Below are positions 696-16,225 of a stretch of DNA of 52,479 bases, piece by piece. Below the pieces are notes generated by a model, which worked only from the letters and a program-made list of their open reading frames with translations, did not search any database and was not told where the DNA came from. Numbering within the stretch: position 1 is the first letter of the stretch; each line of letters opens with the position of its first letter. The stretch covers positions 1 through 52,479 of the forward strand of contig CALDCK010000210.1 of NCBI GenBank assembly GCA_937937315.1, given 5' to 3'. Both the position numbers and the translations under genes were made by a program. The stretch comes from an uncultured bacterium (GTDB lineage Bacteria; Myxococcota_A; UBA9160; SMWR01).

Positions 696-826
696 AGAGA
701 GCTTCGGAGGGTCCATTTTCACCCCCGAGGGTGAGCGCCTGGGGCGATTCGCCCCAAGAGGCGGCGGCTCCCGTGGGCGGGCCGGAAGGCTACGTTGTGC
801 GCCGCGAATCCGGCCACGAGGAAGCC

Positions 827-3067: not shown

Positions 3068-3128
3068 GACGGGGGCCCGGCGCCGCCCGGCCACTCAGGA
3101 CGGCGACGGAGCGCTATCTTTCGGAATC

Positions 3129-6100
3129 GTGCCGATCGACACGGCCGGCCATCGGGCGGGACCGGGAGACTTCTTCCTGCCCCGCACCGAGCGCTACGAG
3201 ATTCGCGACCGCCTCGGAATCGGGTCGCTGGGCGCGGTCTTTCGCGCACTCGACCGGGAGACCGGGCGCGAGGTCGCGCTGAAGACGCTGATCACCCGCG
3301 ACCCGGATGATCTCTATCTCCTGAAGCGCGAATTTCGCGCCCTCGCCGACATCTCCCATCCGAACCTCGTGCAGCTCTACGACCTCGAGGCCGACGGCGA
3401 GCAGTGCTTCTTCACGATGCAGCTCGTGCGGGGAACCGATCTCCTCGAGCACCTCTGCGGATCCGGACCGCGCCCTGCGAGAGACTACGAGCGGCTTCGG
3501 CGCTGCTTCGAGCAGCTGGCCGCGGGACTCGACGCGCTGCACGGACTGGGGAAGCTGCACCGCGACGTGAAGCCGCAGAACGTTCTGGTCGACGAGGACG
3601 GGCAGGTCATCCTCCTCGACTTCGGCCTCGTGATCGGGATGGACAGCGCCCTCTCGATCGCCAGCCAGCGCGACGGGTTCGCCGGGACCCTCCTCTACAC
3701 CTCGCCGGAGCAGGCCTGGGGCAACCCGATCTCGCCGGCAGCGGACTGGTACAGCGCCGGCGTCATGCTCTACGAGTGCTTGACCGGGCAGGCGCCCTTC
3801 GACGGGCCCGGTCTCGGCGCTCTGCTCGACCGCCAGCACCGGGCGCCCGAGCCCCCCCGAGCCCGGGTCCCGTCCATCCCGGAAGACCTGGACCTACTGA
3901 CCCTCGACCTGCTTCGCTACGAGCCCGACACCCGTCCCGGGTTCGACGAGATCGTGAAGCGCCTCGGAGGCGCCGACCTCCCGCCCGCCCCCGACGCGCC
4001 CCGGCGGCTCCCGGATCGGGGGATCGTCGGTCGCGAGGTGGAGCTCCGAAAGCTTCGGGAGGCCATGGATGCCGCCCGCACCGGATCCGGGGCCTGTATC
4101 CGGGTGGAAGGACCGTCGGGCATCGGGAAGTCCGCCCTGGTGGAGCACTTCCTCACCGCCCTCGAACGCGACCACGACGGCGTGGTCCTGCGTGCCCGCT
4201 GTCATCCCAACGAGTCGGTCCGCTTCGAGGCAGTGGATGGGCTGGTCGACGACCTCAGTCGCTTCCTGAGCCGCCTGCCCGAGGAAGAGCTCGAAGCCGT
4301 CCGGCCGCGGGGTCTCAGGGCCCTGCTGCGGATGTTCCCCGTCCTCGGCCGTGTCCCCTTCGCGGACCTCGAGGACGCGCCGGATCTGGCCGACGTCGAC
4401 CCCGGCGAGATCCGGCGGCGCGGCTTCGGTGCGCTCCGCGAGCTGCTGGCGCGCATCGCCGACCGTCGCCCCCTCGCCCTCTGGAGCGACGATCTCCACT
4501 GGGGCGATCTCGACAGCGCCGACTTCCTGCGATCTCTACTGCGACCGCCCGATCCTCCGCCGCTGCTGATGATCCTCTCCTATCGCAGCGACGACCGCAG
4601 GCAGAGCCCGCTCCTGAGAGCGCTCGACGAGGAGCCCGAAGCGGATCGTGCGAATCTCCTCGAGGTCGGCCCCCTGTCGCCGGACGAAGCCCGGGAGCTC
4701 GTAGGCGACCTCCTGCCCCTTGCACCGCCGATGGCGATCGACCGCATTCGCGCCCTGGTCCAGGAAGCGGGCGGCTCCCCCTTCTTCATCGGGGAGCTGG
4801 CCCGCTTCGCCAACCAGCCGACGGCGACGGGTGATGCACCGGGTGATCTCGGCGCCGTCATTCGTGCGCGCCTGGAGGCGCTTCCGAGCGAAGCGCTGGA
4901 GATCCTCGAGCTGGTCGCCGTATCGGGCGCGCCCATCGACACCCAGCTCGTCCTCGAGCTCTCGGGAGTCGCCGGCCGCGGACGACCGAGGGTCTACGAG
5001 CTCTGCAACGGATCGCTATTGCGCGCGAGCTCGTCGGGGCGGGAAGTCGAGACGTATCACGGCCGGATTCGCGACGCGATTCTCGACGGCCTCGACGATC
5101 CAGACCGAAGAAGACGCCACCGTCAGCTCGCCGACGGTCTGGCGGAACGACCCGAGACGAGAGCGGCGACGCTGTTGGAGCACACCCTCGGCGCCGGTGA
5201 CGAGGCCGGCGCAGTTCCGATCGCCCGGGCCGCCGCGGAGGAAGCAGACCGGGGCCTCGCCTTCGACCGGGCCGCCGAGCTCTACGACCTGGCCTGGAAT
5301 CTCGGCGGTTGCCGCGACGACGCCTGGGATCTCCTTTCCCAGCGCGCACGAGTGCTGGCGGCCGCGGGGCGAAGCGCGGCGGCGGCGGATAGCTGGGAAA
5401 CCGCATCCGCGGCGGCGGGGCGGGCCGACGCCGAGGGACACGTGCCCGCCACGCTCCGCGGGCGAGCCGCCGAGCAGCACTTCTACGCCGGGGAGCTGGA
5501 CGAAGGCATGGAAGCCCTGCGCGCAGCCCTGCGCGACCACCGCATCCGCCTTCCCCGCAACCCCGCCGCCGCAACCCGCTCAGCGCTGCGATCGCGGCTC
5601 TACTTCCTGATGCGCGGTGACGGCTTCACGGAGCGCCCGGCGGCGGATCTGCCCGAGGCGACCGTGGCCCGCCTCGACACGCTCCAGGGAGCCGCCCGCG
5701 GCACGTCGATGCTGGACCACACGCTCTCGGACGCCCTCGCCGTTCGGCACCTCCTCGCCGTCCTCGACGCGGGAGAGCCCTCTCGGGTGGTACGCGCCCT
5801 CGGACTCGAGGCGGGGATCGAAGCCAACGCCGGCGGCGCCTGGCTTCGACGGCGCAGCCTCCGCCTCCTCGATCGCATCGACGACCTGGCGAAGCGGACG
5901 GGCGATCCCTTCGATCGAGCCTGGGTAGAGCTCTCGCGATCGGTGGTCGGGTGGTATCACGGCCTCTGGCGCGAGTGCGTCGAGCGCTGCGACCGAGCCG
6001 TCTCCCTCATGCGCGCCGAGTGCATCGGCATCAGCTGGGACCTCGCGGCGAACCGGGCCTTCGCGCTCTCGGCCCTCGTCCAGCTGGGGCGAATCCGCGA

Positions 6101-6818
6101 GCTGGCCGAGCGCCTGCCCGCGCTGCTCGACGAGGCGCGCGAGCGGGGAGACCACTACGCCCTCGGGATCTACCTCACCGGCGACAGCGTCTTCGTTCCC
6201 CTCGCCGCCGACGATCCGGACCGCGCCCGTCAGGACCTCGAGCACATCGACCACACCTGGCAGAACGGTCTCTTCACGTCCCAGCACTTCCGGGGCTTCT
6301 ACAGCGCCGTCCACATCGCGCTCTACGAAGACGAGGCGGAGACCGCGTGGCAGCGCGTCGAGCACGACTGGAGAGCCCTGCGCGATGCGGGCTTCCTACG
6401 CCTCGACTGTGTGGGCAACGGGCTGCGGCATCTGCGAGCGCGAGCCGCGCTGGCTGCAGCGGCTCGGGGGGCGGGTCCGACCGAGCGCCTGGCACGGGTC
6501 GCCGAGGGCGAGCGCCGGCACATCGCGCGCTCCAGCCTGCCCCACGCCAGCGCGAACGCTGCAGCCATCGCCGCCGGCATCGCCAGCCTTCGCGGCGATC
6601 TCGCGGCCTGCAAGCGGGAGCTCGCCGCAGCAGCCGACGCATACGACGCCGCGGAGATGGGCCTCTGCGCTCGATCCGCGCGCTGGCAGCTCGCCGTCGC
6701 GACCGGCGACTCCGAAGATGGACGCCGCGCAGCAGAGGAGATGACGGGCGAGGGAATCCTCGATCCCGCCCGCTTCGCGCGCATGGCACTCCCCCTCCCG
6801 GCTACGGGCAGCGCCTGA
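3129..6818 (+). CDS. Ser/Thr protein kinase fused to a P-loop (AAA/STAND-like) NTPase and a ~600-aa helical-repeat C-terminus
   Basis: Frame of track ORF 2634..6818; the part before 3067 overlaps the ADH gene and is Arg/Pro junk. Kinase motifs are GIGSLGAV, VALK, HRDVKPQN, DFG and SPE. Walker A is GPSGIGKSALV. The long Ala/Leu/Arg-rich tail is TPR-like. The start is uncertain; GTG 3129 is the first in-frame start after the ADH stop. Confidence 0.8.
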   Translation: MPIDTAGHRAGPGDFFLPRTERYEIRDRLGIGSLGAVFRALDRETGREVALKTLITRDPDDLYLLKREFRALADISHPNLVQLYDLEADGEQCFFTMQLVRGTDLLEHLCGSGPRPARDYERLRRCFEQLAAGLDALHGLGKLHRDVKPQNVLVDEDGQVILLDFGLVIGMDSALSIASQRDGFAGTLLYTSPEQAWGNPISPAADWYSAGVMLYECLTGQAPFDGPGLGALLDRQHRAPEPPRARVPSIPEDLDLLTLDLLRYEPDTRPGFDEIVKRLGGADLPPAPDAPRRLPDRGIVGREVELRKLREAMDAARTGSGACIRVEGPSGIGKSALVEHFLTALERDHDGVVLRARCHPNESVRFEAVDGLVDDLSRFLSRLPEEELEAVRPRGLRALLRMFPVLGRVPFADLEDAPDLADVDPGEIRRRGFGALRELLARIADRRPLALWSDDLHWGDLDSADFLRSLLRPPDPPPLLMILSYRSDDRRQSPLLRALDEEPEADRANLLEVGPLSPDEARELVGDLLPLAPPMAIDRIRALVQEAGGSPFFIGELARFANQPTATGDAPGDLGAVIRARLEALPSEALEILELVAVSGAPIDTQLVLELSGVAGRGRPRVYELCNGSLLRASSSGREVETYHGRIRDAILDGLDDPDRRRRHRQLADGLAERPETRAATLLEHTLGAGDEAGAVPIARAAAEEADRGLAFDRAAELYDLAWNLGGCRDDAWDLLSQRARVLAAAGRSAAAADSWETASAAAGRADAEGHVPATLRGRAAEQHFYAGELDEGMEALRAALRDHRIRLPRNPAAATRSALRSRLYFLMRGDGFTERPAADLPEATVARLDTLQGAARGTSMLDHTLSDALAVRHLLAVLDAGEPSRVVRALGLEAGIEANAGGAWLRRRSLRLLDRIDDLAKRTGDPFDRAWVELSRSVVGWYHGLWRECVERCDRAVSLMRAECIGISWDLAANRAFALSALVQLGRIRELAERLPALLDEARERGDHYALGIYLTGDSVFVPLAADDPDRARQDLEHIDHTWQNGLFTSQHFRGFYSAVHIALYEDEAETAWQRVEHDWRALRDAGFLRLDCVGNGLRHLRARAALAAAARGAGPTERLARVAEGERRHIARSSLPHASANAAAIAAGIASLRGDLAACKRELAAAADAYDAAEMGLCARSARWQLAVATGDSEDGRRAAEEMTGEGILDPARFARMALPLPATGSA

Positions 6819-6840: not shown

Positions 6841-9800
6841 CTAGGAGGGATCGAACTTCAGGAATGCATCGAGCAGGGAGCGCAGGGTCTTCACGAACTC
6901 GTCGCCCTCGGTGAAGCCAAGCTCCTCGTCGAGCCGTCCCAGGACGTGGCCCCAGAGCTTGCTGATCTGCCCGGGGAACTCGTCCTTCATCAGGTCCCCG
7001 GGAAGCCCTGCGACCCACTCGCCCAGGCGGAGGATCTCGAAGGCGTGGGGGAGCGGCACACCCCCGGACTTCGTGTCGTACACGGCGCCGTCCAGGCGAC
7101 GAAGGATCGCGAGGTCGTCGAACTCGTGAGCTTCCGGATCCCAGAAATCCGGATAGTCGCCGAAGAAGGTTCCCTGGCCGTTGTAGGTGGGCGGATCGGT
7201 CGGAGGGGCAAGGAGCGCGTGCAGGATCGAAGCGACTGCGTGACGCGCCGACTCATTCGCCGACTCCATGGTCGAGAGTCGGGTGAGAGTCGCCATCTGG
7301 TTGCCCGCCATGAGCCACCGACGACGGGTGAGGTGGTAGTAGATCCTCGATTTCGGGTTCCAGAACAGGTTCATCGGGACCGGGGTGGTTTCGAGCAGGG
7401 AAAGGAGGCCGGGGCGCTCCTTCCAGACCTCCGGCCCGTTGATGAGGAAGGGCGTGGCGTTGCGAACCGGTGTCGCCTCGTCATTCTCCAGCGAGAGCGT
7501 CGCGGATACGGGTCGGATGCGCAGTGAAGAGCCGGACTCGATCCGGAGGCGATGGGTGAGCGAATCCAGCGCCAGGACACTGAGCATCGTGTCGGGGGAC
7601 GCGAAATCCACGTGCAGCCGGGCGCCCTCGACCGCGCGGGCGATGGCGCCGGGAACGTGATCGTTGATGCCGTCCACGAAAGCATCGCGGATCTCGTCCT
7701 CGCTCTCTCCGGACGGCGTCATCTCGATCACTGGCGTGCTCCCGATCCGAATCCGGTAGGGGACCGGCGCGACACCGGCCACACGGATCACCGCCGACGC
7801 ACCCCACGCCGATGCGGCCACGAGCAGGCGGTGCGCCGGGCCGTCACCGGTGTTCACGGGCAGCGGAGCCGCCAGGAATGGGCGCGGGCCGGCGTCGATC
7901 TTCGCCGCGAGCAGGCGCGGAACGTCGCTCGCATCCTCGCCGCTCGTCAGAGTGATCGCGTAGGTCTGCCCCTCGATCGCCAGGGCATGGTCCGCAGCGC
8001 CTTCATCCGCGACACCCACCACCGCGCCGTCGGGGCCGAGCTTTCGCTCACCAACCTCGCCCTCGAACTCGATGGCCTGGTCGAGGTGGTAGTAGGCCGG
8101 GCGTGACAGCTTCCCGGAGAGAACGCCGTCGAGGCCCGCAGTGATCTGCCGCCAGACCTCCTCCGCGAGACCCTGCTTGGACGTATGCCAGGCCGGAGCG
8201 GGCGACCCATCGTCGCGATCGGGTGCTCGGGCGTAGAAGCGACCGATGTCCACGGAGAGCTGGCCGAGGAAGGCACTCCTGCGCGACATGCGCTCGCGCC
8301 AGTAGGCGACCTGAGAGATCGAGGACAGGCCCCAGGGCGCCCGCGGATAGTAGGTGTGGCCGCGCCCGATCCGGACCTGGTGGCTGAAGTAGTACTGGAT
8401 GCCAGACAGGTCGCGGAGCGGATACCTGGCGGGAGTGGGGCGACCGAGGACATCCCGCACGAGCGGGAGCTCGACACCGGCATCGGTGCGACGAGCCGTG
8501 GCCTTCTCGAAGCCCATCATCTGCGCAAAGCAGCCGTCGAGCTGCTGCGGCGAGTCGAGGGCGGCACCGTCCTCGTGAGCCTGCCAGACCAGACGCGATA
8601 CCTCGTCGAAGGGCAGGGCCATGACGTAGAAGTCCGGGCCGCCGCCCGCGCTGGACGGGCTCGGGTCTCCGCCTCCCGGATCGATCTCCACGTAGACCTC
8701 GTCGGGAATCTCCGGCGACGCACCGACGATGCCGACTGCCGGATCGTCGGTAACGATCCGTAGTGAGTCGCCGCGCAGAACGTCGAGCTGTGGAAACGCC
8801 TCTCGATCGACGCGCAGGTCCACACCGCGGCCGACACGGCCCCGCCAGCGCTTAACGTCCACGTGAACGATCTCTCCCTCGGCCTCGCTGGCGAGGCGGA
8901 TCCCCGTCTCGCCGGCTCGGTTCGGCTGGAGATGGCGCACGCGATCGGCGATCTCCACGAGCAGCCGATCGCGAATGTCCTCCGTCGAAAGCGGCGCTTC
9001 CTCCTCCTCCACCTCGATCTCGACTCTCCTCCCGTCGATCTCGGCGCCGTACCGCCCCGCGGCCCGGCTCCGGATCCAGAGCAGGGCCTCCCCCGGACGG
9101 GGGGAGACGAGGAAGGAGCCCCGAAGCACCTGCACCGCGACATCCTCGAGCGGCTCCCTTGCGGAGAGCAGGCTGAGATCCGGGCCGATCGGAACCTCGA
9201 GGCCGAAGAGCTGTATGCGCAGGTCGATGGCGGGACGCCGGATCCGCAGCAGGACGTCGTCTTCCGTGTGCCGCGGCGTGAGCCGCATCCGGCCTGCCCG
9301 GAGGTCTGCCTCACTCATCTGGACCGCGATCCCCAGATCCAGGTCCTCATCGATCTGCCTTGCCAGCCGCTTCGTCGCCTCCGCGAGGGAAACCCCTGCT
9401 TCGAGGGCCATCGAAGTTCGCAGGCCGTTGAGCTCGAGCTCGAGCGTACCCGGGTCGACGAGGATGATCTGGAGCGACGCGTCGCCACAATCATGGGTCT
9501 TCCGCGTCACGATCGGCAGCAGCTCGTCGCCGTGCCACTCGAGCTTCGAGAGCTCGCCGACGAAGAAGCGCACGCCCTGGCGCTGGAGGTAGCGCTTCCA
9601 GTGCCCTAGCCAGGCCTCGGAAGTCGGTCCGTTCAGCGTGCGATTCGCTTCGGACCCGTCTCGCATGACGTCGGTGAGGAGCTGGGCATAAACGGCGCCC
9701 TGGGTGCGCGCATCGGTCTCGTCGGCGCCCATCGCCACCAACGCCTCGGGCGTGGTGCGAAGGAGGTCGGCCATCTCGGCAGAATAGTGATAGCGAGCGT

Positions 9801-11301
9801 TTCCGTTCTCATCCTTCCCGACGAGGAAGTCCCACCAGCTCTGTTCTTCGTACTCTCCCCGGCGCCTCTCGGCGGAGGAGGTGAGGAACTGCATCATGCG
9901 CAGGGAGAAGAGGAGGAGGTCCCGCACGGTGAGATCCAGGAGCTCCCCGCCCAGGTGCATGCGCATGAGCTCTCGCAGCTCCTCGAGGGAGCGCGCTCCT
10001 CGCACCGGCACGCGATGGGGGCGGCGCTGGTCCTCGAGCGCCACATCGACCACTTCGACCGCCTCGAGCTGATCGAAGGCGGTCCGACCCGTCTCGCGGC
10101 CCTGGGCGTCGAGGATCGGCGTTCGCTTCATCGTGTCGAAGAGGTGGCGGTAGAAGCCGGGGAAGAAGCGGTAGCCGTGTTCCCCGGGGATGTGGTGCTC
10201 GACGATGCGCAGCTCCACCCGGTTCGCCCGACGGCGCCCGATTCTTCGCCGCGGATTCCCGAGGCGCTCGGCGCCCCCGACGCCGACCAGCAGGATTCGC
10301 TTCTCCAGGTCGGGGATCGGGCCCCCCGCAGCTTCGTTGCGCGCCACGAGCTCCTGGCGCACCAGATCCGCCCACTCGAGGCTGAGCTCGCGGTCCTTCC
10401 CGGGCGCGCCATCTCCATCGGTATGTCCGCGGATCTCGAGCAGGAACTCCTCGCGGCGGCGCATCCGTTCGCTCAGCCCATCCGAGTCGAAGCCGCCCTT
10501 GTCCGTCTTCTTCTCGATGTTGGAGGCAACGTCCGCGGTATAGGACTGATACGCCTTCAGAAGAGCGGCCCAGATCTCGTCGAGCTTCTGGGAGTTCTTC
10601 GTGCAGTGCTCGTCCTCGATCTCCCGCCAGTCGCCGTCAGACATCGGTCGCTCGAACTGCAGACGCTGAGGCAGGGGGATGCGCGGATGGACCGGCTCCA
10701 TCACAGAGGCACGCAGATGGGCGAGGGTGGAGAGGCCCTCGTAGCGGATGATCGGATTCGAGGGGTCCGCCACTTCGACCGATATGCGCGCCACCTCGCC
10801 CGGGGTCTTCGACGTCACCAGCACCGCGGCACTTCCGTGGAGCTCCGCGTCGAAGCCGGCGCCGATCGCTCCGTCCCGGATCCTCTCCGCAGTCTTCTCC
10901 ATGCTCGATGGGTGGGTCGTGATCTCGAACTCGCCGTCACCGACCCGGACCTTCACCTGTTCCTCCCCCAGGTGGTCCACCCAGATCTGGATGCTTCGCG
11001 GGTCCGGATCCACGGCGTCCTCGCCGGCTTTGTCCTCCTCGCTGAAGAGATAGGGGTGCACCCGCTCGATCTCCGCGGGAACGCGGCCGACCTGGTTCGC
11101 CGCGAGTCCGCCGACTTCGCAGGAGTACTCGTCGTCCGGATCCGGCCGCGCCTCCACCACCTGCACCCCGAACCCGCGCTCCACCAGCTCGTGGGCCAGA
11201 GAGAGGCCGGTCACCCCTGCACCGAAGATGGTGACGATGGGGGCATGCCGGGTCTCCTTCTCTCGTGCGAGATCCACGTCGATCCAGGCGTCGATGGTCA
11301 T
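6841..11301 (-). CDS. 1,486-aa mosaic FAD/NAD(P)-binding oxidoreductase (amine-oxidase / CrtI-like core) with three large insertions, one of them OmpA-like
   Basis: Track ORF 6841..11460. ATG 11301 (MTIDAW..) overlaps the SCP2 gene stop as ATGA. The Rossmann dinucleotide motif is IVTIFGAGVTGLSLAHELVERGFGVQVVE..EVGG. Core blocks are PGEHGYRFFPGFYRHLFDTMKRTPI, DFYVMALPFDEV, LSGIQYYF, GHTYYPRAPWGLSSISQVAYW, TPFLINGPEVWKERPG and LSTMESANESARHAVASIL. There is no signal peptide or TM segment. Confidence 0.75.
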   Translation of the reverse strand: MTIDAWIDVDLAREKETRHAPIVTIFGAGVTGLSLAHELVERGFGVQVVEARPDPDDEYSCEVGGLAANQVGRVPAEIERVHPYLFSEEDKAGEDAVDPDPRSIQIWVDHLGEEQVKVRVGDGEFEITTHPSSMEKTAERIRDGAIGAGFDAELHGSAAVLVTSKTPGEVARISVEVADPSNPIIRYEGLSTLAHLRASVMEPVHPRIPLPQRLQFERPMSDGDWREIEDEHCTKNSQKLDEIWAALLKAYQSYTADVASNIEKKTDKGGFDSDGLSERMRRREEFLLEIRGHTDGDGAPGKDRELSLEWADLVRQELVARNEAAGGPIPDLEKRILLVGVGGAERLGNPRRRIGRRRANRVELRIVEHHIPGEHGYRFFPGFYRHLFDTMKRTPILDAQGRETGRTAFDQLEAVEVVDVALEDQRRPHRVPVRGARSLEELRELMRMHLGGELLDLTVRDLLLFSLRMMQFLTSSAERRRGEYEEQSWWDFLVGKDENGNARYHYSAEMADLLRTTPEALVAMGADETDARTQGAVYAQLLTDVMRDGSEANRTLNGPTSEAWLGHWKRYLQRQGVRFFVGELSKLEWHGDELLPIVTRKTHDCGDASLQIILVDPGTLELELNGLRTSMALEAGVSLAEATKRLARQIDEDLDLGIAVQMSEADLRAGRMRLTPRHTEDDVLLRIRRPAIDLRIQLFGLEVPIGPDLSLLSAREPLEDVAVQVLRGSFLVSPRPGEALLWIRSRAAGRYGAEIDGRRVEIEVEEEEAPLSTEDIRDRLLVEIADRVRHLQPNRAGETGIRLASEAEGEIVHVDVKRWRGRVGRGVDLRVDREAFPQLDVLRGDSLRIVTDDPAVGIVGASPEIPDEVYVEIDPGGGDPSPSSAGGGPDFYVMALPFDEVSRLVWQAHEDGAALDSPQQLDGCFAQMMGFEKATARRTDAGVELPLVRDVLGRPTPARYPLRDLSGIQYYFSHQVRIGRGHTYYPRAPWGLSSISQVAYWRERMSRRSAFLGQLSVDIGRFYARAPDRDDGSPAPAWHTSKQGLAEEVWRQITAGLDGVLSGKLSRPAYYHLDQAIEFEGEVGERKLGPDGAVVGVADEGAADHALAIEGQTYAITLTSGEDASDVPRLLAAKIDAGPRPFLAAPLPVNTGDGPAHRLLVAASAWGASAVIRVAGVAPVPYRIRIGSTPVIEMTPSGESEDEIRDAFVDGINDHVPGAIARAVEGARLHVDFASPDTMLSVLALDSLTHRLRIESGSSLRIRPVSATLSLENDEATPVRNATPFLINGPEVWKERPGLLSLLETTPVPMNLFWNPKSRIYYHLTRRRWLMAGNQMATLTRLSTMESANESARHAVASILHALLAPPTDPPTYNGQGTFFGDYPDFWDPEAHEFDDLAILRRLDGAVYDTKSGGVPLPHAFEILRLGEWVAGLPGDLMKDEFPGQISKLWGHVLGRLDEELGFTEGDEFVKTLRSLLDAFLKFDPS

Positions 11302-11741
11302 TGGGGGGCCTCTGCTGCGGGTTTCGGTGCGGCTGCGAGTCGGCTCACACGGAGCTCGGCGAGGAGCGCGGGAAGGGACGGGCAGCGGATTGCGCCGCCG
11401 AGGTAGCAGACGAGGGCCTCGTCGAAGCGCGTCACGGCGTCGGCGCTCCCCGTGAGCCACAGCCTCTCCTCGAGAAGGGCTTCCAGGAGCGACAGCTCCC
11501 CGTCCACCAGGTCGAGGATCGTGGTCCAGTCGGTGCGCAGGAACATCTCCTCTCGATGATCCGGCTCCCGAAGCGCATGACGGGAGCCCTCGAAGCGAAG
11601 CGCGACGGTCGGCCCGTCCACCTCGCAGCGCAGACCTCGGCGCCCCAGGGTCGAGGCCAGCTCAGCGTGGTGATCGGGCGCTTCGACCCGGAGGATCGTG
11701 AGGGAGCGGTCCAGGAATGCGGGGAAGTCAGGCTGCCGCAC
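11298..11741 (-). CDS. SCP2 (sterol/lipid carrier)-like small protein
   Basis: 147 aa. TDWTTILDLVDGELSLLEALLEERLWLTGSADAVTRFDEAL resembles the SCP2 C-terminal helix-strand pattern. The GTG start overlaps the upstream stop by 14 nt, and its stop overlaps the downstream ATG. Confidence 0.5.
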   Translation of the reverse strand: MRQPDFPAFLDRSLTILRVEAPDHHAELASTLGRRGLRCEVDGPTVALRFEGSRHALREPDHREEMFLRTDWTTILDLVDGELSLLEALLEERLWLTGSADAVTRFDEALVCYLGGAIRCPSLPALLAELRVSRLAAAPKPAAEAPQ

Positions 11742-12786
11742 GATTCATCTCCACCAGTCCCGGGCCCTCGAAGCACACCGGCTCTCCCCGGACCTGGCCC
11801 TCGACCCGGACCTCGGATCGCACCTCGGAGACGATCGTGGCACCGCGACCGACGTCGTTGGGAATCGCGACCTGGGCGAGATCCCCGAGCTCGAACTCGA
11901 TGTCGAGGGCGTCCGCACCCCGCCGCGCCTCGACCCGAATGCGAGCCGGCAGATCCGCCGCTCGCCCCGGCGAAACGAGGGACATGATCCGCGGCACCCG
12001 CAGCGCCCCACGCGTGGAGGTCCGACCCTCGGAGTGAACCGACAGCTCCGATCCGTGGAGCGTGCGGAGATGGCGATCGCCGCGCCAGAGCAGGACGCCC
12101 TGGGAGAGGGTGCGCAGGCGGCCGCGATCGGAGATGCGCTGGAATACCAGGGTCCACGGCACCGCCTCGTCGGCGAGCCCGATGCCCCACTCCCAGGAGA
12201 AGTCGCCGCCCCAGCGGAAGCTTCCCCAATCGTGATCGTGATAGGCGGGCGCCCGAACGAGCTCCCGGCGGCCCCCCCGCCAGACGACGGTCCCCGAGGC
12301 CTCGAGCCTCGGCACCACGAACCAGCGCATGCCGGGCCCGTCGGCGAGAGGGACGCTGGTCGTGAGCGCCGGTCGCGAGGCCAGCTCGAGCCGAAGCCTG
12401 GCGCGCAGCGCCTGGCGCCTCAGGGCCAGGTCGAGCTCGTAGGCGCCGTCCCGAAAGCGCAATCGGTTCGGGCCCAGGCGCAGGTCGACGCCCCCTTCGT
12501 CGATCTCGAGCGCCGAGGATGCGTAGGCGTCGACGTCGCCGGTCCAGTCGCCGCCCGGCTCACGCATCAGCACGGTGAGGCGCGGGGTCTCGATCGCGCC
12601 GAAAGCATCCATCAGGCTGAAGTTGATCAGCAGGTCGAGGTCCCGCCCGAAGATGCAGAAGTGGGACCACTCCTTGTGTCCCGCCGGCCCCCCGACCGAC
12701 GCCGGCGAGCGCCGCCAGTGATCCGCCTGAAGCACCAGGGCTCCGAGGGTCGCCGGGTCGATGGCGCGATGAGCGTGGAGATTCAT
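11728..12786 (-). CDS. 352-aa beta-rich protein, CrtC/AttH-like (lipocalin-type hydratase-like); function unproven
   Basis: Track ORF 11728..13122; only the part from ATG 12786 (MNLHAHRAIDP..) looks coding. The motif APAYHDHDWGSFRWGGDFSWEWG resembles the YHDxNWG..W.WG signature I associate with hydroxyneurosporene-synthase/AttH family proteins. Confidence 0.4.
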   Translation of the reverse strand: MNLHAHRAIDPATLGALVLQADHWRRSPASVGGPAGHKEWSHFCIFGRDLDLLINFSLMDAFGAIETPRLTVLMREPGGDWTGDVDAYASSALEIDEGGVDLRLGPNRLRFRDGAYELDLALRRQALRARLRLELASRPALTTSVPLADGPGMRWFVVPRLEASGTVVWRGGRRELVRAPAYHDHDWGSFRWGGDFSWEWGIGLADEAVPWTLVFQRISDRGRLRTLSQGVLLWRGDRHLRTLHGSELSVHSEGRTSTRGALRVPRIMSLVSPGRAADLPARIRVEARRGADALDIEFELGDLAQVAIPNDVGRGATIVSEVRSEVRVEGQVRGEPVCFEGPGLVEMNRAAA

Positions 12787-12814
12787 GGGAGCGGGTCCCG
12801 CTGGGGGTGGAGAC

Positions 12815-13129
12815 TCATCGGAGCAGATCCAGGCGGGCCGACGGCTCGCGTCGTGCCGCTTCGTCGACGGCTTCCTCCGGCTGGGGCGACCGGGCGAGCC
12901 AGACATCGACCCTCGCTCCGAGGGCGAGCAGTCCGAGCCAGGCGGCGATCTCCGGGGGCACCTGCGCGCCGTCGGCGGACACCGCCGACGGCCGCTCCTC
13001 CCGCGCCGATTCGCCGGGTGCCTCGCGCTCGATCCATTCGCGAATCCGCCGGGCCAGTGCCAGGGCGCCGAGGGCGAGGAGCAGCACCTCGTCCTCCTGG
13101 GGCGCCGGTCCATGCTGCTCATTCAGCAT
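12815..13129 (-). CDS. 104-aa hypothetical protein with two hydrophobic segments (possible small membrane protein)
   Basis: This is the tail of track ORF 12815..13696, starting at ATG 13129 (MLNEQHGPAPQEDEVLLLALGALALARRI..IAAWLGLLALGARVDVWL..). It has high GC3. It fills the gap between neighbouring genes exactly and overlaps the upstream stop by 11 nt. Confidence 0.45.
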   Translation of the reverse strand: MLNEQHGPAPQEDEVLLLALGALALARRIREWIEREAPGESAREERPSAVSADGAQVPPEIAAWLGLLALGARVDVWLARSPQPEEAVDEAARREPSARLDLLR

Positions 13130-13727
13130 CGCCCTCGCCTCCGGGTCCGCCGAAGAGGCGGTCGAGGATCGCGTCCGGATCGTCCGAGGACGCCGCCATG
13201 AAAAGCCCGTCCAGGTAGGCGGAGGGCAGGGGGCCATCGTCGCCCGCCTCCATCGAGCCGAGGGAGGCGATCTGCCAGACGATGCGCAGGTGGTGCAGGA
13301 GATCCGAGCCCTCCAGTCGACGCCTCCACGCCTGCCCGTCTTCGGTCTCCGCATAGCGTCGCCCCTCGGCCACGAGGGCCCGCACCGCGGACTGGGCGGC
13401 GGCGGGGTGGCGCAGGATCGTGCGCTGGAGCGCCCGAAGCATGGCGACGGTCTCATCGTCGCCCTCCCCGCTGTCGGGAAGCGGGGGCAGGAGCTCGTCC
13501 GCGATCCGATCTCCCATCTCAGCCTGAGCGGCGAGCCTCGACATCCGATCGAAGAACACCCGACGCGCTCCCTCGTAGCCCGGGCGCGCGCCGCTCCCGG
13601 AGCTCTCGACCCGATTGCGCTCATGCCGCTTGCGGAGCTCACCCACGAGGCGTTCGAGGGAGTCTCCGGCCTCCCGATCCGCACCTCGAAGCTCACGAAG
13701 CGCGCGCTGCAGCGTCCCCTCCTTCAT
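13119..13727 (-). CDS. 202-aa helical hypothetical protein
   Basis: Track ORF. Coding-like composition, ATGA overlap with the prenyl synthase stop, and no motif I recognise. Confidence 0.6.
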   Translation of the reverse strand: MKEGTLQRALRELRGADREAGDSLERLVGELRKRHERNRVESSGSGARPGYEGARRVFFDRMSRLAAQAEMGDRIADELLPPLPDSGEGDDETVAMLRALQRTILRHPAAAQSAVRALVAEGRRYAETEDGQAWRRRLEGSDLLHHLRIVWQIASLGSMEAGDDGPLPSAYLDGLFMAASSDDPDAILDRLFGGPGGEGDAE

Positions 13728-14851
13728 CGGTCGCGTGCCACCACGAAGTCCACGAGACCCTCCAGGAAGTCCCGGTGGACGGAGCCGGGAAGGCTTCCTC
13801 CGATCGCCTCGAAGGACCGCCGCGCGCGATCGGCGTGCCGACGCGCCACGACGCGTGCGTGGTCCACGCCACCGCTGCGAAGGACCAGGTCTCGCAGGAA
13901 GGCCACGTCCTCCCGGGACTTCACATCGGCCGATTTCCGGTCCTGTCGGTTCACCTCGCAGGGCCGCGAGCGCCCGAGGATGCGGAGCGCCTCGCGACGC
14001 GCCGCGGGGCTCGCCTGGCGGATTGCGTGGATCAGCAGGAGGGTGTGCTTCCCCTCCCAGAGATCACCGTCGATCTCCTTTCCGTAGCGAGATGCCTCGC
14101 CCACCAGGTTGAGCACGTCGTCCTGGATCTGGAAGGCGATGCCCAGGGGCGTCACGCACCGGGCGAGGACGGCGAGCTCCGGATCTCGAGCTCCCGCCGC
14201 GATGCCGCCGACCAGCACGGGAGCGAGGAACGTGTACCAGCACGTCTTCTTGTAGACCATGCGCAGATAGGCGCGATCCGTTGGGGACCAATCCGCGCGA
14301 CGCACCCAGTCGAGCTCCATCATCTGGCCCTCGGCGGATTCCCGGGCCATGCGCGCAACGACGCGCAGGATCCGCAGGGCTCGACCCAGCCCGACGAGCT
14401 CGATGTTCTCGAGCAGCGGCTCCATGGTGAGGGCGAGCATCCCGTCGCCCACGTTCACCGCGATGGGAACGCCGTGGAGCTGGTGCAGGGTCCGTTCGTT
14501 GCGCCGCAGGTCGGAGCCGTCCTCGACGTCGTCGTGGATCAGGAAGGCGTTGTGGTAGAGCTCGAGCACGGCAGAGGAGCGCAGCACCGACTCGAGATGT
14601 CCGCCCAGGGCTCGGCAGGTGGCGATGCAGAGGGCCGGCCGCAGGGCCTTCCCTCCCCGCATCGGGTAGTCGAGCATCAGCTCGTAGAGGAGCCCCCCGG
14701 CCCGCGCGTCCCGGGGCACGATCTCGCGGATCTCGTCGACGACGCGACCGCGACAATCCTCCATGTAGGCGAGGAGTCGGTCCGGATCTTCGGCTGGCGT
14801 ATCGCCAATCAGGGGGGGCTGCAGCATCGGGTCCCTCGCTGCTCGACCCAT
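13724..14851 (-). CDS. trans-polyprenyl diphosphate synthase (FPP/GGPP synthase family)
   Basis: First Asp-rich motif FLIHDDVEDGSDLRR, second Asp-rich motif FQIQDDVLN, and KALRPAL. AGGA lies upstream of ATG 14851. Only 11 nt separate it from the cyclase stop. Confidence 0.85.
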   Translation of the reverse strand: MGRAARDPMLQPPLIGDTPAEDPDRLLAYMEDCRGRVVDEIREIVPRDARAGGLLYELMLDYPMRGGKALRPALCIATCRALGGHLESVLRSSAVLELYHNAFLIHDDVEDGSDLRRNERTLHQLHGVPIAVNVGDGMLALTMEPLLENIELVGLGRALRILRVVARMARESAEGQMMELDWVRRADWSPTDRAYLRMVYKKTCWYTFLAPVLVGGIAAGARDPELAVLARCVTPLGIAFQIQDDVLNLVGEASRYGKEIDGDLWEGKHTLLLIHAIRQASPAARREALRILGRSRPCEVNRQDRKSADVKSREDVAFLRDLVLRSGGVDHARVVARRHADRARRSFEAIGGSLPGSVHRDFLEGLVDFVVARDR

Positions 14852-14862
14852 CTTATCCTGAA

Positions 14863-15975: not shown

Positions 15976-16011
15976 GATCGATCTCCTCCACTTCCCCGAG
16001 ATGTGGAGTAG

Positions 16012-16027
16012 AGCAATCGCCATGCCA
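16012..16027 (-). promoter_or_regulatory. Sigma-54 (-24/-12) promoter TGGCATG-GCGA-TTGCT facing the cyclase/prenyl operon
   Basis: The minus strand reads TGGCATGGCGATTGCT, with GG and GC separated by exactly 10 nt. This matches the consensus TGGCACG-N4-TTGCW. The element ends about 37 nt upstream of the ATG at 15975, and a bEBP gene is encoded divergently. Confidence 0.6.
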
Positions 16028-16066
16028 TGCGCCTCTGGCGTCCTGAAGAGGCGACAGCCCCCCGGG

Positions 16067-16084
16067 CGTCCTCCGGAGAGGACG
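16067..16084. promoter_or_regulatory. Perfect inverted repeat CGTCCTC-CGGA-GAGGACG, with a third GAGGACGG half-site at 16110-16117; candidate activator-binding site
   Basis: Read directly. It lies 40-90 bp upstream of the -24 element, inside the 250-bp divergent intergenic region. Confidence 0.4.
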
Positions 16085-16225
16085 GTCGACCGGATCGGTG
16101 TCCGGCCTGGAGGACGGATCTGGCGGTGCGCAGGCCTCTCACGGAGCCATCGAGGCGGCGCGGCGCTTGCACTCCGCTCCATCGCAATGGCAAGCTCGAT
16201 CTCCATCTGGAAGAGGTCTCGCTTC

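What the first reader, a model, noticed from the sequence alone, without database searches (positions are those of the whole stretch)
6841..11301. Flavoenzyme core interrupted by at least three 200-300-aa insertions (mosaic 1,486-aa protein)
Seen, using residue numbers of the track ORF that starts at 11460. The Rossmann motif (aa 75-120) is separated from the next recognisable core block PGEHGYRFFPGFY (aa 425) by about 300 aa (nt 10189-11097). The block ending GDELLPIV (aa 650) is separated from DFYVMALPFDEV (aa 943) by about 290 aa (nt 8641-9498). YYHLDQAIEF (aa 1123-1132) is separated from TPFLINGPEVWKERPG (aa 1336) by about 200 aa (nt 7462-8064). From my recollection, stand-alone members of this COG3349/CrtI-like family are about 450-550 aa and these blocks are near-contiguous in them. 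Inference: whole domains have been grafted into surface loops of the oxidoreductase. This may turn an enzyme into a scaffold or receptor.
Basis: partly seen in the sequence, partly recalled or inferred. Interest (0 to 1): 0.8.

Follow-up and report, generated by a model that had tools for sequence, protein, structure and literature searches.

The report
Giant flavoenzyme with grafted surface domains
A normal ~550-residue FAD enzyme of the phytoene-desaturase/amine-oxidase type has grown to 1,486 residues by taking an OmpA-like domain and five flagellin-type repeat modules into three surface loops, and it is the last gene of a widespread, unstudied isoprenoid operon.

Summary
The gene at 6841-11301 (-) is one intact 1,486-aa ORF. 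Its four conserved blocks match stand-alone 541-581-aa homologues; 913 residues are extra. A spliced construct (insert 2 removed) folds confidently (pLDDT 89.6, pTM 0.89). Its best structural match is rice phytoene desaturase, followed by amine oxidases.

The inserts are real domains:
- Insert 1 is one ~80-aa module plus an OmpA-like domain. In that domain the peptidoglycan-binding Arg is Trp.
- Inserts 2 and 3 each hold two more copies of the module.

The module is a distant Flagellin_IN-type domain. It also occurs in giant repeat proteins (up to 27 copies) and in a flagellar hook protein, and it resembles phage tail-sheath and FliD outer domains.

Insert content varies among orthologues, which range from about 740 to 2,039 aa. 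All of them lie in one conserved operon: polyprenyl-diphosphate synthase, a helical protein, a small protein, a tocopherol-cyclase/CrtC-like protein, an SCP2-like protein and the flavoenzyme. A convergent STAND Ser/Thr kinase usually follows. Gene fusions support these links.

The protein is most likely an active isoprenoid desaturase or oxidoreductase with lineage-specific decorations. What the decorations do is unknown. No curated Pfam or NCBIfam model names the family. I rate it a new variant of a known kind, moderately to highly interesting.

The parts
6841..11301 (-). Complete gene for the 1,486-aa flavoprotein (ATG at 11301, stop codon at 6841-6843)
   Evidence: ORF. ATGA overlap with the upstream gene and uniform GC3. 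197 homologues.
11086..11241 (-). Core block 1 (aa 21-72): Rossmann beta-alpha-beta with GAGVTG, acidic end of beta-2, and the GG motif (GGLAANQ)
   Evidence: Pfam DAO and NAD_binding_8 hits at aa 23-71. Nearly invariant columns. 98% identical to P0002.
10201..11085 (-). Insert 1 (aa 73-367), lying between the GG motif and PGEHGYRFFP. It is absent from stand-alone homologues.
   Evidence: Alignment with short homologues. Variable coverage among homologues. This insert ranges from 150 to 475 aa across the family.
10741..11001 (-). Module A (aa 101-187): Flagellin_IN-like beta-beta-beta-alpha-beta-beta unit
   Evidence: hhalign to the insert-2 module (P 90%, E 1.7e-6) and to the insert-3 module (P 81%). 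Strands and helix with pLDDT >90. Weak hit of the external-only HMM (4.5 bits, against a maximum of 3.9 in shuffles).
10201..10704 (-). OmpA_C-like domain (aa 200-367). It carries Trp310 where the canonical peptidoglycan-binding Arg sits.
   Evidence: Pfam OmpA E 0.017. Family profile against PDB OmpA-like domains E 2.4e-7, with the alignment showing the canonical RRA opposite the family's 'ewA'. Trp in 56 of 79 and Arg in 17 of 79 family members. Confident beta/alpha model.
9526..10200 (-). Core block 2 (aa 368-592): PGEHGYRFFPGFY and a helical substrate-domain segment. It holds most of the family-invariant residues.
   Evidence: All 119 homologues cover it. Invariant H375, G376, R378, P381, Y384, M391, R393, D461, R479, W568.
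8638..9525 (-). Insert 2 (aa 593-888), in the beta-hairpin that precedes DFYVMALP. An insert of 110 aa or more is present in only about 27 of the 115 homologues aligned.
   Evidence: Separate AlphaFold model with pLDDT 80.8.
9223..9486 (-). Module B (aa 606-693), Flagellin_IN-like
   Evidence: External-only HMM 14.5 bits, i-E 1.5e-6. Secondary structure E-E-E-H-E-E.
8848..9096 (-). Module C (aa 736-818), Flagellin_IN-like. It is preceded by a degenerate all-beta unit (aa 694-735, nt 9097-9222) and followed by a beta-rich linker (aa 819-888).
   Evidence: External-only HMM 9.8 bits. hhalign between inserts. Model.
8089..8637 (-). Core block 3 (aa 889-1071): DFYVMALP ... GIQYYF ... PWGLSSISQ ... 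LSVDIG ... YYHLD. It includes a small extra loop at aa 906-948.
7501..8088 (-). Insert 3 (aa 1072-1267), between YYHLDQAIEF and NATPFLIN
   Evidence: This insert ranges from 4 to 554 aa across the family.
7771..8004 (-). Module D (aa 1100-1177), Flagellin_IN-like
   Evidence: External-only HMM 28.1 bits, i-E 9e-11. Model.
7561..7770 (-). Module E (aa 1178-1247), Flagellin_IN-like
   Evidence: External-only HMM 26.0 bits, i-E 4e-10. Model.
7030..7500 (-). Core block 4 (aa 1268-1424): NATPFLIN, RPG, and the C-terminal FAD motif LTRLSTMESANESARHAV
6841..7029 (-). C-terminal helical extension (aa 1425-1486), absent from short homologues. The model is of low confidence here.
   Evidence: pLDDT 47-60.
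11298..11741 (-). Upstream 147-aa gene, SCP2-like, translationally coupled to the flavoprotein through an ATGA overlap. It is fused to the flavoprotein in six homologues.
   Evidence: Pfam SCP2 E 0.025. The top PDB hits of the family profile are all SCP2 folds, E 0.16. Fusions with E 1e-30 to 6.5e-8. Conserved position.
11728..12789 (-). Gene of about 353 aa, a distant tocopherol-cyclase/DUF2804/CrtC-like protein with an invariant AYHDH.WG.F.WG.DF.WEWG motif. The 464-aa ORF call is probably over-extended at its 5' end.
   Evidence: 14 of 26 orthologues hit Tocopherol_cycl (best E 1.6e-4), 15 of 26 hit DUF2804, and 1 hits CrtC. Invariant columns. Orthologues are 335-374 aa.
13119..13727 (-). 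202-aa helical protein with a conserved C-terminal domain (HPxAAQAxFxALVAEGRRFAxTxEG). It has no known relatives.
   Evidence: Conserved in 33 loci.
13724..14896 (-). trans-Polyprenyl diphosphate synthase, the first gene of the conserved cluster
   Evidence: Pfam polyprenyl_synt E 3.9e-60. Conserved position. Fused to a short flavoprotein homologue in four alphaproteobacterial loci.
2634..6818 (+). Convergent STAND-type Ser/Thr kinase (Pkinase + AAA_16 + a long C-terminal region that was not analysed). It is a conserved neighbour.
   Evidence: Pfam. Convergent and adjacent in L001, L003 and L004. A kinase gene lies close by in many other loci. Some of those hold a short flavoprotein homologue without the synthase, for example L061, L032, L042 and L071.

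Best explanation
The gene encodes a catalytically competent FAD enzyme of the phytoene-desaturase / HpnE / amine-oxidase type. This is a two-domain fold that, in its known relatives, works on lipophilic substrates at the membrane.

The enzyme is the last gene of a conserved operon. That operon begins with a trans-polyprenyl-diphosphate synthase. It also encodes a tocopherol-cyclase/CrtC-like protein (a family that protonates isoprenoid double bonds) and an SCP2-like lipid carrier. The inferred job of the flavoenzyme is therefore to desaturate or oxidise a polyprenyl-derived lipid made by its operon partners.

In this lineage, three solvent-exposed loops of the core have received extra folded domains:
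- Loop 1 lies after the GG motif. It holds one ~80-aa Flagellin_IN-like module plus an OmpA_C-like domain in which the peptidoglycan-contacting Arg is Trp.
- Loop 2 is a beta-hairpin of the FAD domain. It holds two modules plus beta-rich remnants.
- Loop 3 lies in the substrate domain. It holds two modules.

The inserts are decorations rather than part of the chemistry. Orthologues in the same operon carry anywhere from none to many of them, and the modules evolve much faster than the core. Their most likely role is to add protein-protein or envelope/membrane interaction surface, for example for oligomerisation, for docking operon partners, or for docking the adjacent STAND kinase.

Shown: the architecture, the fold, the repeat relationship, the operon and the gene fusions. 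Inferred: the substrate class, the cytoplasmic location, retained catalysis, and the role of the inserts.
For: Intact ORF and start codon.

Core and insert boundaries.

The core reassembles:
- The spliced model has pLDDT 89.6 and pTM 0.89.
- The best PDB fold match is rice PDS, 5mog (E 1e-8, TMt 0.57, 437 columns), followed by putrescine oxidase, NicA2 and MAO.

Family placement of the short homologues:
- Pfam Amino_oxidase over 1-443/443, E 1e-25.
- Best NCBIfam models are HpnE, ZDS and PDS.

FAD motifs and invariant residues are conserved between giant and short forms.

OmpA-like domain:
- Detected.
- Arg is replaced by Trp in 56 of 79 members.

Module repeats:
- Cross-insert hhalign P 81-90%.
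- An HMM built only from 153 non-flavoprotein copies finds all five positions at 4.5-28.1 bits. The maximum in 200 shuffles was 3.9 bits.
- The module profile has 486 hits among 1.84 billion proteins (E up to 0.001). Of the 150 best hits listed, 144 lack the flavoenzyme motif GEHG[YF]R[FY]F. They include proteins with up to 27 copies and a FlgE-like hook protein with 9 copies.
- The consensus of the external copies aligns to Pfam Flagellin_IN over 1-55/55, E 0.004.
- Foldseek matches phage tail-sheath, nozzle and baseplate proteins and FliD/flagellin outer domains.

Operon:
- Conserved in Myxococcota, Gammaproteobacteria, Binatia, Mycobacterium and other Actinomycetota.
- SCP2-like::flavoprotein fusions.
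- Flavoprotein::polyprenyl-synthase fusions.
- The third gene is tocopherol-cyclase/DUF2804/CrtC-like.

Rates of change: identity to P0002 is 73-98% in the core, 78% in the OmpA-like domain and 42-59% in the modules.

No signal peptide or transmembrane segment is apparent by eye at the N-termini of 16 homologues.
Against: - No biochemical data exist for any member. The substrate is inferred only from gene neighbourhood and fusions.
- The window protein alone matches Pfam only at its first ~50 residues. All NCBIfam matches are far below cut-off, so the chemistry could differ from desaturation.
- The full-length protein was not modelled. The main model lacks insert 2, and insert 2 was modelled from only 12 sequences. 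Coordinates could not be inspected, so whether the inserts block or shape the active-site entrance is unknown.
- The high pTM suggests that the inserts pack on the core in fixed positions, which could mean a functional rather than a decorative role.
- OmpA-like and Flagellin_IN-like domains are typical of extracytoplasmic proteins. That fits awkwardly with a cytoplasmic enzyme.
- The accessory-gene assignments (SCP2, tocopherol cyclase) are below family thresholds.
Confidence: 0.65

Rival explanations
1. The enzyme has been converted into a non-catalytic scaffold or receptor. On this view the flavoprotein fold is only a frame that displays OmpA-like and Flagellin_IN-like binding domains.
For: - 913 of 1,486 residues are not core.
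- The inserted domain types are binding or structural domains elsewhere.
- The high pTM implies a fixed, purpose-built assembly.
- A STAND kinase is a conserved neighbour.
Against: - All FAD-binding motifs and about 14 family-invariant core residues are retained. The core is the most conserved part of the protein: 73-98% identity to P0002, against 42-59% for the modules.
- Orthologues without inserts occupy the same operon. The conserved function therefore resides in the core.
Confidence: 0.15
2. The protein is exported and works in the cell envelope. On this view the OmpA-like domain anchors it to peptidoglycan and the flagellin-type modules are exposed outside the cytoplasm.
For: - OmpA_C-like domains and Flagellin_IN-type repeats are overwhelmingly extracytoplasmic. 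The PDB matches are OprF, Pal, YfiB, PomB and TssL. The module also occurs in a hook protein and in giant repeat proteins.
- 17 of 79 homologues keep the canonical Arg.
Against: - No Sec or Tat signal or membrane anchor is apparent by eye in the window protein or in 15 other N-termini. The Rossmann fold starts at residue 21.
- The start codon is fixed by an ATGA overlap.
- The peptidoglycan-binding Arg is Trp here and in 56 of 79 members.
- Its partners are cytoplasmic types: a polyprenyl synthase, an SCP2-like protein and a kinase, and some of them are fused to the flavoprotein.
Confidence: 0.07
3. The long ORF is an assembly or frameshift artefact that fuses several genes.
For: The only support is its unusual length and the lack of Pfam coverage beyond residue 71.
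Against: - The codon-position GC pattern is uniform, with no frame change.
- The same architecture occurs in P0002 (69% identity) and about ten homologues at 38-40% identity from independent contigs and sources, at 97-100% coverage.
- The four separated blocks fold together into one confident PDS-like core.
Confidence: 0.01

Closest known systems
Plant/cyanobacterial-type phytoene desaturase (PDS, PDB 5mog), zeta-carotene desaturase and hydroxysqualene dehydroxylase HpnE (the COG3349 branch of the Pfam PF01593 amine-oxidase superfamily)
   Same: - Two-domain FAD fold (best Foldseek match).
- N-terminal GxGxxG, a GG motif, an 'EHG..FF..Y' block after the GG motif, and a C-terminal T..ME.A..S motif.
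- Stand-alone relatives of the window protein match Amino_oxidase end to end, and their best NCBIfam models are HpnE, ZDS and PDS.
- Genomic link to an isoprenoid synthase.
   Different: - About 11% sequence identity to PDS in the structural alignment.
- Scores are far below every curated cut-off (84 against 283 bits for HpnE, even for the short forms).
- No phytoene or squalene synthase (CrtB, HpnC/D) was found among the operon genes scanned.
- About 900 extra residues in three loops.
- The operon partners are different and uncharacterised.
OmpA_C-like peptidoglycan-binding domains (Pfam PF00691; for example OprF, Pal, YfiB, PomB/MotB, TssL)
   Same: - The sequence profile of insert 1b matches them (E 2.4e-7 with the family profile).
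- The GHTD and NRVE motifs are present.
- The predicted secondary structure is mixed beta/alpha.
   Different: - It is embedded in a loop of a cytoplasmic-looking flavoenzyme, not at the end of an envelope protein.
- It has a long extra helix.
- The Arg that binds the diaminopimelate carboxylate is Trp.
- There is no signal peptide.
Flagellin hook IN motif domain (Pfam PF07196) and the small outer 'decoration' domains of flagellin, FliD, hook, phage tail-sheath, baseplate-J and nozzle proteins
   Same: - The consensus of the module family aligns to Flagellin_IN over its whole length.
- The same module occurs nine times in a FlgE-like hook protein.
- Local fold matches to a cyanophage A-1(L) sheath domain (75 columns, rmsd 2.3 A), to the phage Mu sheath and to FliD D2-D3.
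- BFVD matches to baseplate-J-like, tail tubular B and sheath proteins.
   Different: - The score is below Pfam's gathering threshold (17.8 against 22.7 bits), and the window protein itself gives no hit.
- Here the module is an internal graft in an enzyme, not a unit of a filament or a tandem array.
Other enzymes with domains inserted into loops, for example flagellins that carry an inserted metallopeptidase (PMC5595980, seen only as a title and abstract)
   Same: The principle is the same: a host fold tolerates a whole foreign domain in a surface loop.
   Different: The direction is reversed. Here the enzyme is the host and filament-type domains are the guests. There are also several sites and several copies.

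Membership tests
Amine-oxidase / PDS-type flavoproteins (Pfam PF01593, COG3349 branch) | N-terminal dinucleotide-binding beta-alpha-beta with GxGxxG | tested here: met
   Pfam DAO and NAD_binding_8 hits at aa 23-71. GAGVTG, with nearly invariant G27, G29 and G32.
Amine-oxidase / PDS-type flavoproteins (Pfam PF01593, COG3349 branch) | Full-length match to the Amino_oxidase profile above the gathering score | tested here: inconclusive
   The window protein itself does not match, because the inserts break the alignment. Its stand-alone homologues do: 79-91 bits against a cut-off of 19.8, over profile positions 1-443.
Amine-oxidase / PDS-type flavoproteins (Pfam PF01593, COG3349 branch) | Two-domain FAD/substrate fold | tested here: met
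   AlphaFold model with pLDDT 89.6. Foldseek top hits are PDS 5mog, putrescine oxidase, NicA2 and MAO, all with probability 1.00.
Amine-oxidase / PDS-type flavoproteins (Pfam PF01593, COG3349 branch) | Binds FAD and turns over a substrate | not testable with these tools
   This needs purified protein.
Named equivalogs HpnE, PDS, ZDS and CrtI/CrtD (NCBIfam) | Score above the curated equivalog cut-off | tested here: not met
   For the window protein the best hit is 21.7 bits against a cut-off of 252. For short homologues the HpnE score is 84 against 283, ZDS 64 against 622, and PDS 49 against 569.
Carotenoid or squalene desaturation pathway | A head-to-head synthase (CrtB or HpnC/D) in the same cluster | tested here: not met
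   The operon genes give only a polyprenyl_synt hit plus unknowns. None is listed in the homologous loci.
OmpA_C-like domain (PF00691) | Profile match | tested here: met
   The window protein alone scores 15.9 bits, below the gathering score of 27.2. The family profile against PDB OmpA-like domains gives E 2.4e-7 and more than 30 such hits. Pfam OmpA is precomputed on many homologues.
OmpA_C-like domain (PF00691) | Asp/Arg pair that binds the peptidoglycan stem peptide | tested here: not met
   Asp295 is kept (59 of 79 members). The Arg position is Trp310 in the window protein and in 56 of 79 members. Which residues bind peptidoglycan is taken from my knowledge of the published OmpA and Pal structures.
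OmpA_C-like domain (PF00691) | Extracytoplasmic location | tested here: not met
   No signal peptide or transmembrane segment is apparent by eye at the N-terminus. Not tested experimentally.
Flagellin_IN (PF07196) | Profile match above the gathering score | tested here: not met
   The window protein gives no hit. The consensus of 153 external copies scores 17.8 bits against 22.7, E 0.004, but over the full profile length 1-55/55. P0122 scores 16.3 bits with four stretches.
Flagellin_IN (PF07196) | Occurs in flagellar hook or filament proteins, and the fold matches their outer domains | tested here: met
   Nine copies lie in P0129, which has Flg_bb_rod, FlgE D1 and Flg_bbr_C ends. Foldseek matches FliD D2-D3, flagellin and phage sheath domains, but weakly (E 1e-3 to 1e-1).
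Tocopherol cyclase / DUF2804 / CrtC superfamily (for the neighbouring gene at 11728-12789) | Profile match | tested here: inconclusive
   14 of 26 orthologues hit Tocopherol_cycl (best E 1.6e-4), 15 of 26 hit DUF2804 (best E 2.5e-3) and 1 hits CrtC. The window copy itself scores E 0.21, 11.1 bits against a cut-off of 26.6. There is no PDB relative by sequence.
Known anti-phage defence systems (PADLOC) | Any cluster protein matches a system-specific model | tested here: not met
   Only generic kinase-domain hits for the STAND kinase, and a Rossmann-only hit for the flavoprotein.

The most novel reading that the evidence does not exclude
The operon (polyprenyl-PP synthase, helical protein, small hydrophobic protein, tocopherol-cyclase-like protein, SCP2-like carrier, flavoenzyme, and usually a STAND kinase) specifies an undescribed isoprenoid lipid pathway found from Mycobacterium to Myxococcota. 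In some lineages its terminal flavoenzyme has become a display platform: loops that tolerate insertions have repeatedly captured filament-type Flagellin_IN modules, a re-purposed OmpA-like domain with Trp for Arg, and in one member biotin/lipoyl-like domains. On this reading the captured domains build a large, fixed-geometry cytoplasmic or membrane-face assembly that organises or regulates the pathway.
Probability: 0.2. Interest if true: 0.75.

Novelty: new variant of a known kind. Interest (0 to 1): 0.6.

Why it matters
- It is a clear natural example of repeated domain grafting into several loops of one enzyme. Graded series of orthologues (about 545, 740-800, 880-1,100 and 1,300-2,039 aa) share the same genomic context. 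That is useful material for studying how folds tolerate insertions, and for engineering.
- It places a flagellin/phage-type surface module and an OmpA-like domain inside what looks like a cytoplasmic enzyme. This questions the usual reading of both domain types as markers of the cell envelope.
- It points to a conserved, unnamed isoprenoid operon. The operon occurs in cultivable bacteria (Mycolicibacterium chlorophenolicum, Mycobacterium aurum, M. colombiense), so its product and the role of the flavoenzyme can be tested directly.
- The ~80-aa module is widespread (486 hits, arrays of up to 27 copies) yet falls below Pfam thresholds, so it would merit a domain model of its own.

Tried and rejected
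- PADLOC scan of six cluster proteins: only generic kinase hits, so this is not a known defence system.
- Sequence search of the whole protein against the PDB: only the Rossmann motif and the OmpA-like domain were found.
- Family profiles of the 202-aa and 353-aa neighbours against the PDB: nothing credible.
- NCBIfam on the neighbours: nothing except the polyprenyl synthase. Its best model is 'family 2 encapsulin cargo polyprenyl transferase' at 185 bits against a cut-off of 450. No encapsulin gene was seen among the Pfam-listed genes of L001, L003 and L004 or the window ORFs scanned, but the rest of the window was not searched.
- Literature searches for COG3349, DUF2804, heptaprenylcycline, Flagellin_IN, and combinations of operon terms: no paper on this family or operon.
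- I considered that the mycobacterial copies might make the cyclic C35 terpene heptaprenylcycline. I dropped the idea because that compound derives from a Z-type polyprenyl diphosphate, whereas the operon synthase is of the trans type (PF00348).
- Intein or mobile-element origin of the inserts: no Hint or endonuclease hits, and the inserts are folded, conserved domains.
- Tat or Sec export: no signal apparent by eye, and the upstream in-frame extension to the GTG at 11460 overlaps the SCP2-like gene.
- The first alignment was too large for structure prediction and had to be trimmed.


Full report
**1. The observation**

The window contains an uninterrupted ORF at 6841..11460 on the minus strand. 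The biologically likely start is the ATG at 11301, which gives 1,486 aa. That ATG overlaps the TGA of the upstream 147-aa gene as ATGA. The sequence further upstream is the end of that gene in another frame. GC at the three codon positions is constant along the whole ORF (GC3 0.80-0.90, GC2 0.40-0.59), so there is no hidden frameshift.

A database search found 197 relatives, all unnamed or 'hypothetical', of 841-2,039 aa. These include an identical-but-one-residue copy, a 69% identical protein from another contig, and about ten proteins at 38-40% identity that cover 97-100% of the query.

**2. Core and inserts**

Blast coverage by 119 homologues separates four blocks present in essentially all of them from three stretches present in a minority:
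- Conserved: aa 21-80, 361-600, 881-1080, 1281-1430.
- Variable: aa 81-360, 601-880, 1081-1280.

A scan of one genome per species found more than 525 loci encoding relatives that carry GEHG[YF]R[FY]FP. Among them are stand-alone proteins of 541-581 aa in Paenibacillus, Bryobacteraceae, Bacteroidota and Labilithrix, and proteins of about 740-800 aa in mycobacteria.

Alignment with seven short forms shows which window residues have no counterpart: aa 70-367, 593-888, 906-948, 1072-1267, 1303-1325, 1370-1383 and 1425-1486, 913 residues in all.

Insert lengths vary widely across the family:
- Site 1: 150-475 aa.
- Site 2: 5-393 aa.
- Site 3: 4-554 aa.
- Some members also have extra material inside block 3 or at the N-terminus.

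**3. The core is a PDS/amine-oxidase-type flavoprotein**

The window protein alone matches Pfam and NCBIfam only at its Rossmann motif. Its short homologues tell more. They match Pfam Amino_oxidase over the whole profile (E 1e-25 and 4e-22). Their best NCBIfam models are HpnE, zeta-carotene desaturase and phytoene desaturase, all far below cut-off.

I removed insert 2 to fit the size limit (aa 1-598 joined to 885-1486) and predicted the structure with 79 aligned sequences. The result was pLDDT 89.6 and pTM 0.89. Foldseek against the PDB puts rice phytoene desaturase (5mog) first, with E 1e-8, TM 0.57 on the target and 437 columns. Putrescine oxidase, nicotine oxidoreductase, monoamine oxidases and a carotenoid desaturase follow.

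So the four blocks do reassemble into the expected two-domain fold. The dinucleotide motif, the GG motif, the invariant GEHGYRFFP block and the C-terminal TMESANESARHAV motif are conserved in both giant and short forms.

**4. What the inserts are**

*Insert 1, second half (aa 200-367).* This is an OmpA_C-like domain.
- The single-sequence hits are weak (Pfam E 0.017; PDB Rv0899 E 0.05).
- The family profile matches more than 30 solved OmpA-like domains, best E 2.4e-7.
- That alignment puts the canonical 'RRA' opposite the family's 'ewA'. The position is Trp310 in the window protein. It is Trp in 56 and Arg in 17 of 79 aligned members.
- From published OmpA and Pal structures (my knowledge), this Arg binds the diaminopimelate carboxylate of peptidoglycan, so classical peptidoglycan binding is doubtful.

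*The repeated module.* The rest of the inserts is built from one ~80-aa module with the order beta-beta-beta-alpha-beta-beta.
- Profile-profile comparison of the insert alignments links the following pairs:
  - aa ~103-190 to aa ~738-834 (P 90%, E 1.7e-6);
  - aa ~103-190 to aa ~1168-1246 (P 81%);
  - insert 2 to insert 3 (P 89%).
  It also detects internal repeats in inserts 2 and 3.
- The two models show the matching secondary structure with high confidence.
- The copies are A 101-187, B 606-693, C 736-818, D 1100-1177 and E 1178-1247. There is also a degenerate all-beta unit at 694-735.

*The module outside this family.*
- A profile of 40 copies, searched against 1.84 billion proteins, gave 486 hits (E up to 0.001).
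- Of the 150 best hits listed, 144 lack the flavoenzyme motif GEHG[YF]R[FY]F. These include proteins with 15-27 tandem copies (P0121, 3,353 aa, E 1e-111). They also include a 1,681-aa protein with flagellar rod/hook termini and nine copies.

*Avoiding circularity.* I rebuilt the HMM from 153 copies taken only from those outside proteins. It finds exactly the five positions in the window protein, at 4.5, 14.5, 9.8, 28.1 and 26.0 bits. The maximum in 200 shuffles was 3.9 bits. Module A is therefore only marginal by this test. It is supported mainly by hhalign and the model.

*Relation to known domains.*
- The outside consensus aligns to Pfam Flagellin_IN over positions 1-55 of 55, at E 0.004, below the gathering score.
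- Foldseek with the insert-2 model gives weak but consistent local matches. These are a cyanophage tail-sheath domain (75 columns, rmsd 2.3 A), the Mu sheath, T7-type nozzle proteins, baseplate-J-like proteins, FliD D2-D3 and flagellin outer domains.
- I therefore call the module Flagellin_IN-like: a small surface 'decoration' domain.
- Another family member (P0030) carries biotin/lipoyl-like repeats in its inserts. The same loops therefore accept other domain types.

**5. Genomic context**

The flavoprotein is the last gene of a co-directional cluster:
- polyprenyl_synt (13724-14896, E 4e-60);
- a 202-aa helical protein;
- a small ORF with two hydrophobic stretches (about 12815-13126);
- a protein of about 353 aa;
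- the 147-aa protein;
- the flavoprotein.

A convergent Pkinase + AAA_16 STAND kinase lies at 2634-6818.

The same order, including the convergent kinase, is found around homologues of 1,491, 1,257 and 890 aa on unrelated contigs. tblastn finds the synthase / 202-aa / 353-aa / 147-aa / flavoprotein set in about 35 of 83 fetched loci. These include Mycolicibacterium chlorophenolicum, Mycobacterium aurum, M. colombiense, Pseudonocardiaceae, Myxococcota, Gammaproteobacteria and Binatia.

Gene fusions support the links:
- Six homologues carry the 147-aa protein as an N-terminal domain (E 1e-30 to 6.5e-8).
- Four alphaproteobacterial loci encode a short flavoprotein fused in frame to the polyprenyl synthase.
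- Short flavoprotein homologues without the synthase still sit next to a STAND kinase in Labilithrix and Kofleriaceae.

Weak family assignments for the neighbours:
- The 147-aa protein is weakly SCP2-like (Pfam E 0.025; the top PDB hits of its profile are all SCP2 folds).
- For the ~353-aa protein family, 14 of 26 members hit Tocopherol_cycl, 15 of 26 hit DUF2804 and 1 hits CrtC. It has an invariant AYHDH.WG.F.WG.DF.WEWG motif.
- The 202-aa protein has no detectable relatives.

No head-to-head synthase such as CrtB or HpnC/D is present, and PADLOC recognises nothing specific.

**6. Interpretation**

Shown:
- an intact gene;
- a PDS-type FAD core split by three domain-bearing inserts;
- an OmpA-like graft with an altered binding residue;
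- five copies of a Flagellin_IN-like module;
- variable insert content among orthologues;
- a conserved isoprenoid-type operon backed by fusion evidence.

Inferred:
- The enzyme is active. The core is the most conserved part: 73-98% identity to the nearest homologue, against 42-59% for the modules and 78% for the OmpA-like domain.
- It oxidises or desaturates a polyprenyl-derived lipid.
- It is cytoplasmic or faces the inner membrane. No export signal is apparent by eye in 16 N-termini, some of which are basic tails or SCP2 fusions.
- The inserts add interaction surface rather than chemistry. The mycobacterial orthologues, of about 740-800 aa, lack the OmpA-like domain and show no large insert at any of the three sites, yet keep the operon.

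As a replacement for catalysis it is unlikely.

**7. Caveats**

- The full-length protein exceeded the size limit and was modelled in two pieces. Insert 2 rests on only 12 sequences.
- I could not inspect coordinates. 'Separate lobes' therefore rests on secondary structure, pLDDT and pTM, and on domain-level matches.
- All functional assignments of the neighbouring genes, and the Flagellin_IN relationship, are below curated thresholds.
- The literature tools found no paper on this family or operon. That is absence from the searched library, not proof of novelty.

**8. Verdict**

The finding is real and the structural inference is right. The protein is a new, heavily decorated variant of a known enzyme superfamily, inside an uncharacterised and widespread operon. 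Interest 0.6.

Noticed in passing
window 11728-13122 (-) and about 12815-13126 (-): The 464-aa ORF is probably over-called. Its orthologues are 335-374 aa, and its first ~110 residues are Arg/Pro/Ser-rich, typical of an off-frame translation. A small ORF of about 104 aa in another frame (MLNEQHG..., with two hydrophobic stretches) fills the gap. It corresponds in position to 90-99-aa genes in L001, L003 and L004, but tblastn finds no sequence similarity.
   Followed up: partly
window 2634-6818 (+); loci L061, L032, L042, L071, L028, L033: The STAND Ser/Thr kinase (Pkinase + AAA_16) is a conserved neighbour of the giant flavoproteins. It is also a neighbour of short ~550-630-aa homologues that lack the polyprenyl-synthase operon. 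This suggests a flavoprotein-kinase functional pair that is independent of the inserts.
   Followed up: partly
P0040, P0086, P0089, P0091, P0093, P0094 (N-terminal ~100-135 aa): In six homologues the SCP2-like 147-aa protein of the operon is fused to the N-terminus of the flavoprotein (hmmsearch E 1e-30 to 6.5e-8).
   Followed up: yes
L052 9770-12784, L053 9803-12766, L059 9803-12757, L062 9809-12781: In four metagenome-assembled genomes, three annotated as Alphaproteobacteria (L053, L059, L062) and one as Prochlorococcaceae (L052), a short flavoprotein homologue and a polyprenyl synthase lie in one continuous reading frame of 984-1,004 codons. This is a Rosetta-stone fusion.
   Followed up: partly
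P0121 (3,353 aa), P0122, P0123, P0126, P0128 (5,570 aa), P0129 (1,681 aa): The ~80-aa module forms tandem arrays of up to 27 near-identical copies in giant proteins that Pfam does not annotate. It also forms nine copies in a FlgE-like hook protein. The domain family (486 hits) lacks an adequate Pfam model, and its consensus reaches only 17.8 bits on Flagellin_IN.
   Followed up: partly
P0030 (1,612 aa), aa ~780-1276: This family member carries Biotin_lipoyl / HlyD barrel-sandwich-like repeats in place of Flagellin_IN-like modules, so the insertion sites accept unrelated domain types.
   Followed up: partly
window 13724-14896 (-): The best NCBIfam model for the operon's polyprenyl synthase is 'family 2 encapsulin nanocompartment cargo protein polyprenyl transferase' (185 bits, cut-off 450). 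No encapsulin shell gene was seen among the neighbouring genes examined; the rest of the window was not searched.
   Followed up: no
window 14863-16269 (-), 15764-17776 (+), 698-3067 (+): Other genes in the window: a GAF-adenylate/guanylate cyclase whose ORF overlaps the 5' end of the polyprenyl-synthase ORF by 34 nt, a sigma-54 activator (GAF + AAA + HTH_8), and a PQQ-dependent dehydrogenase with a C-terminal cytochrome c domain. None of them is conserved next to the operon in other loci.
   Followed up: partly
window aa 1164 of the flavoprotein (nt ~7810-7812): The database representative P0001 differs from the window protein at a single residue (Ser in the window, Pro in P0001), inside module D.
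   Followed up: no
P0018-P0027, P0039 (insert 2): A second subfamily has a different insert 2. It begins with one module ('GDYTV.V.G..Y') and continues with a long helical, charged region and a conserved 'CPYFFR' segment. This was not analysed further.
   Followed up: no
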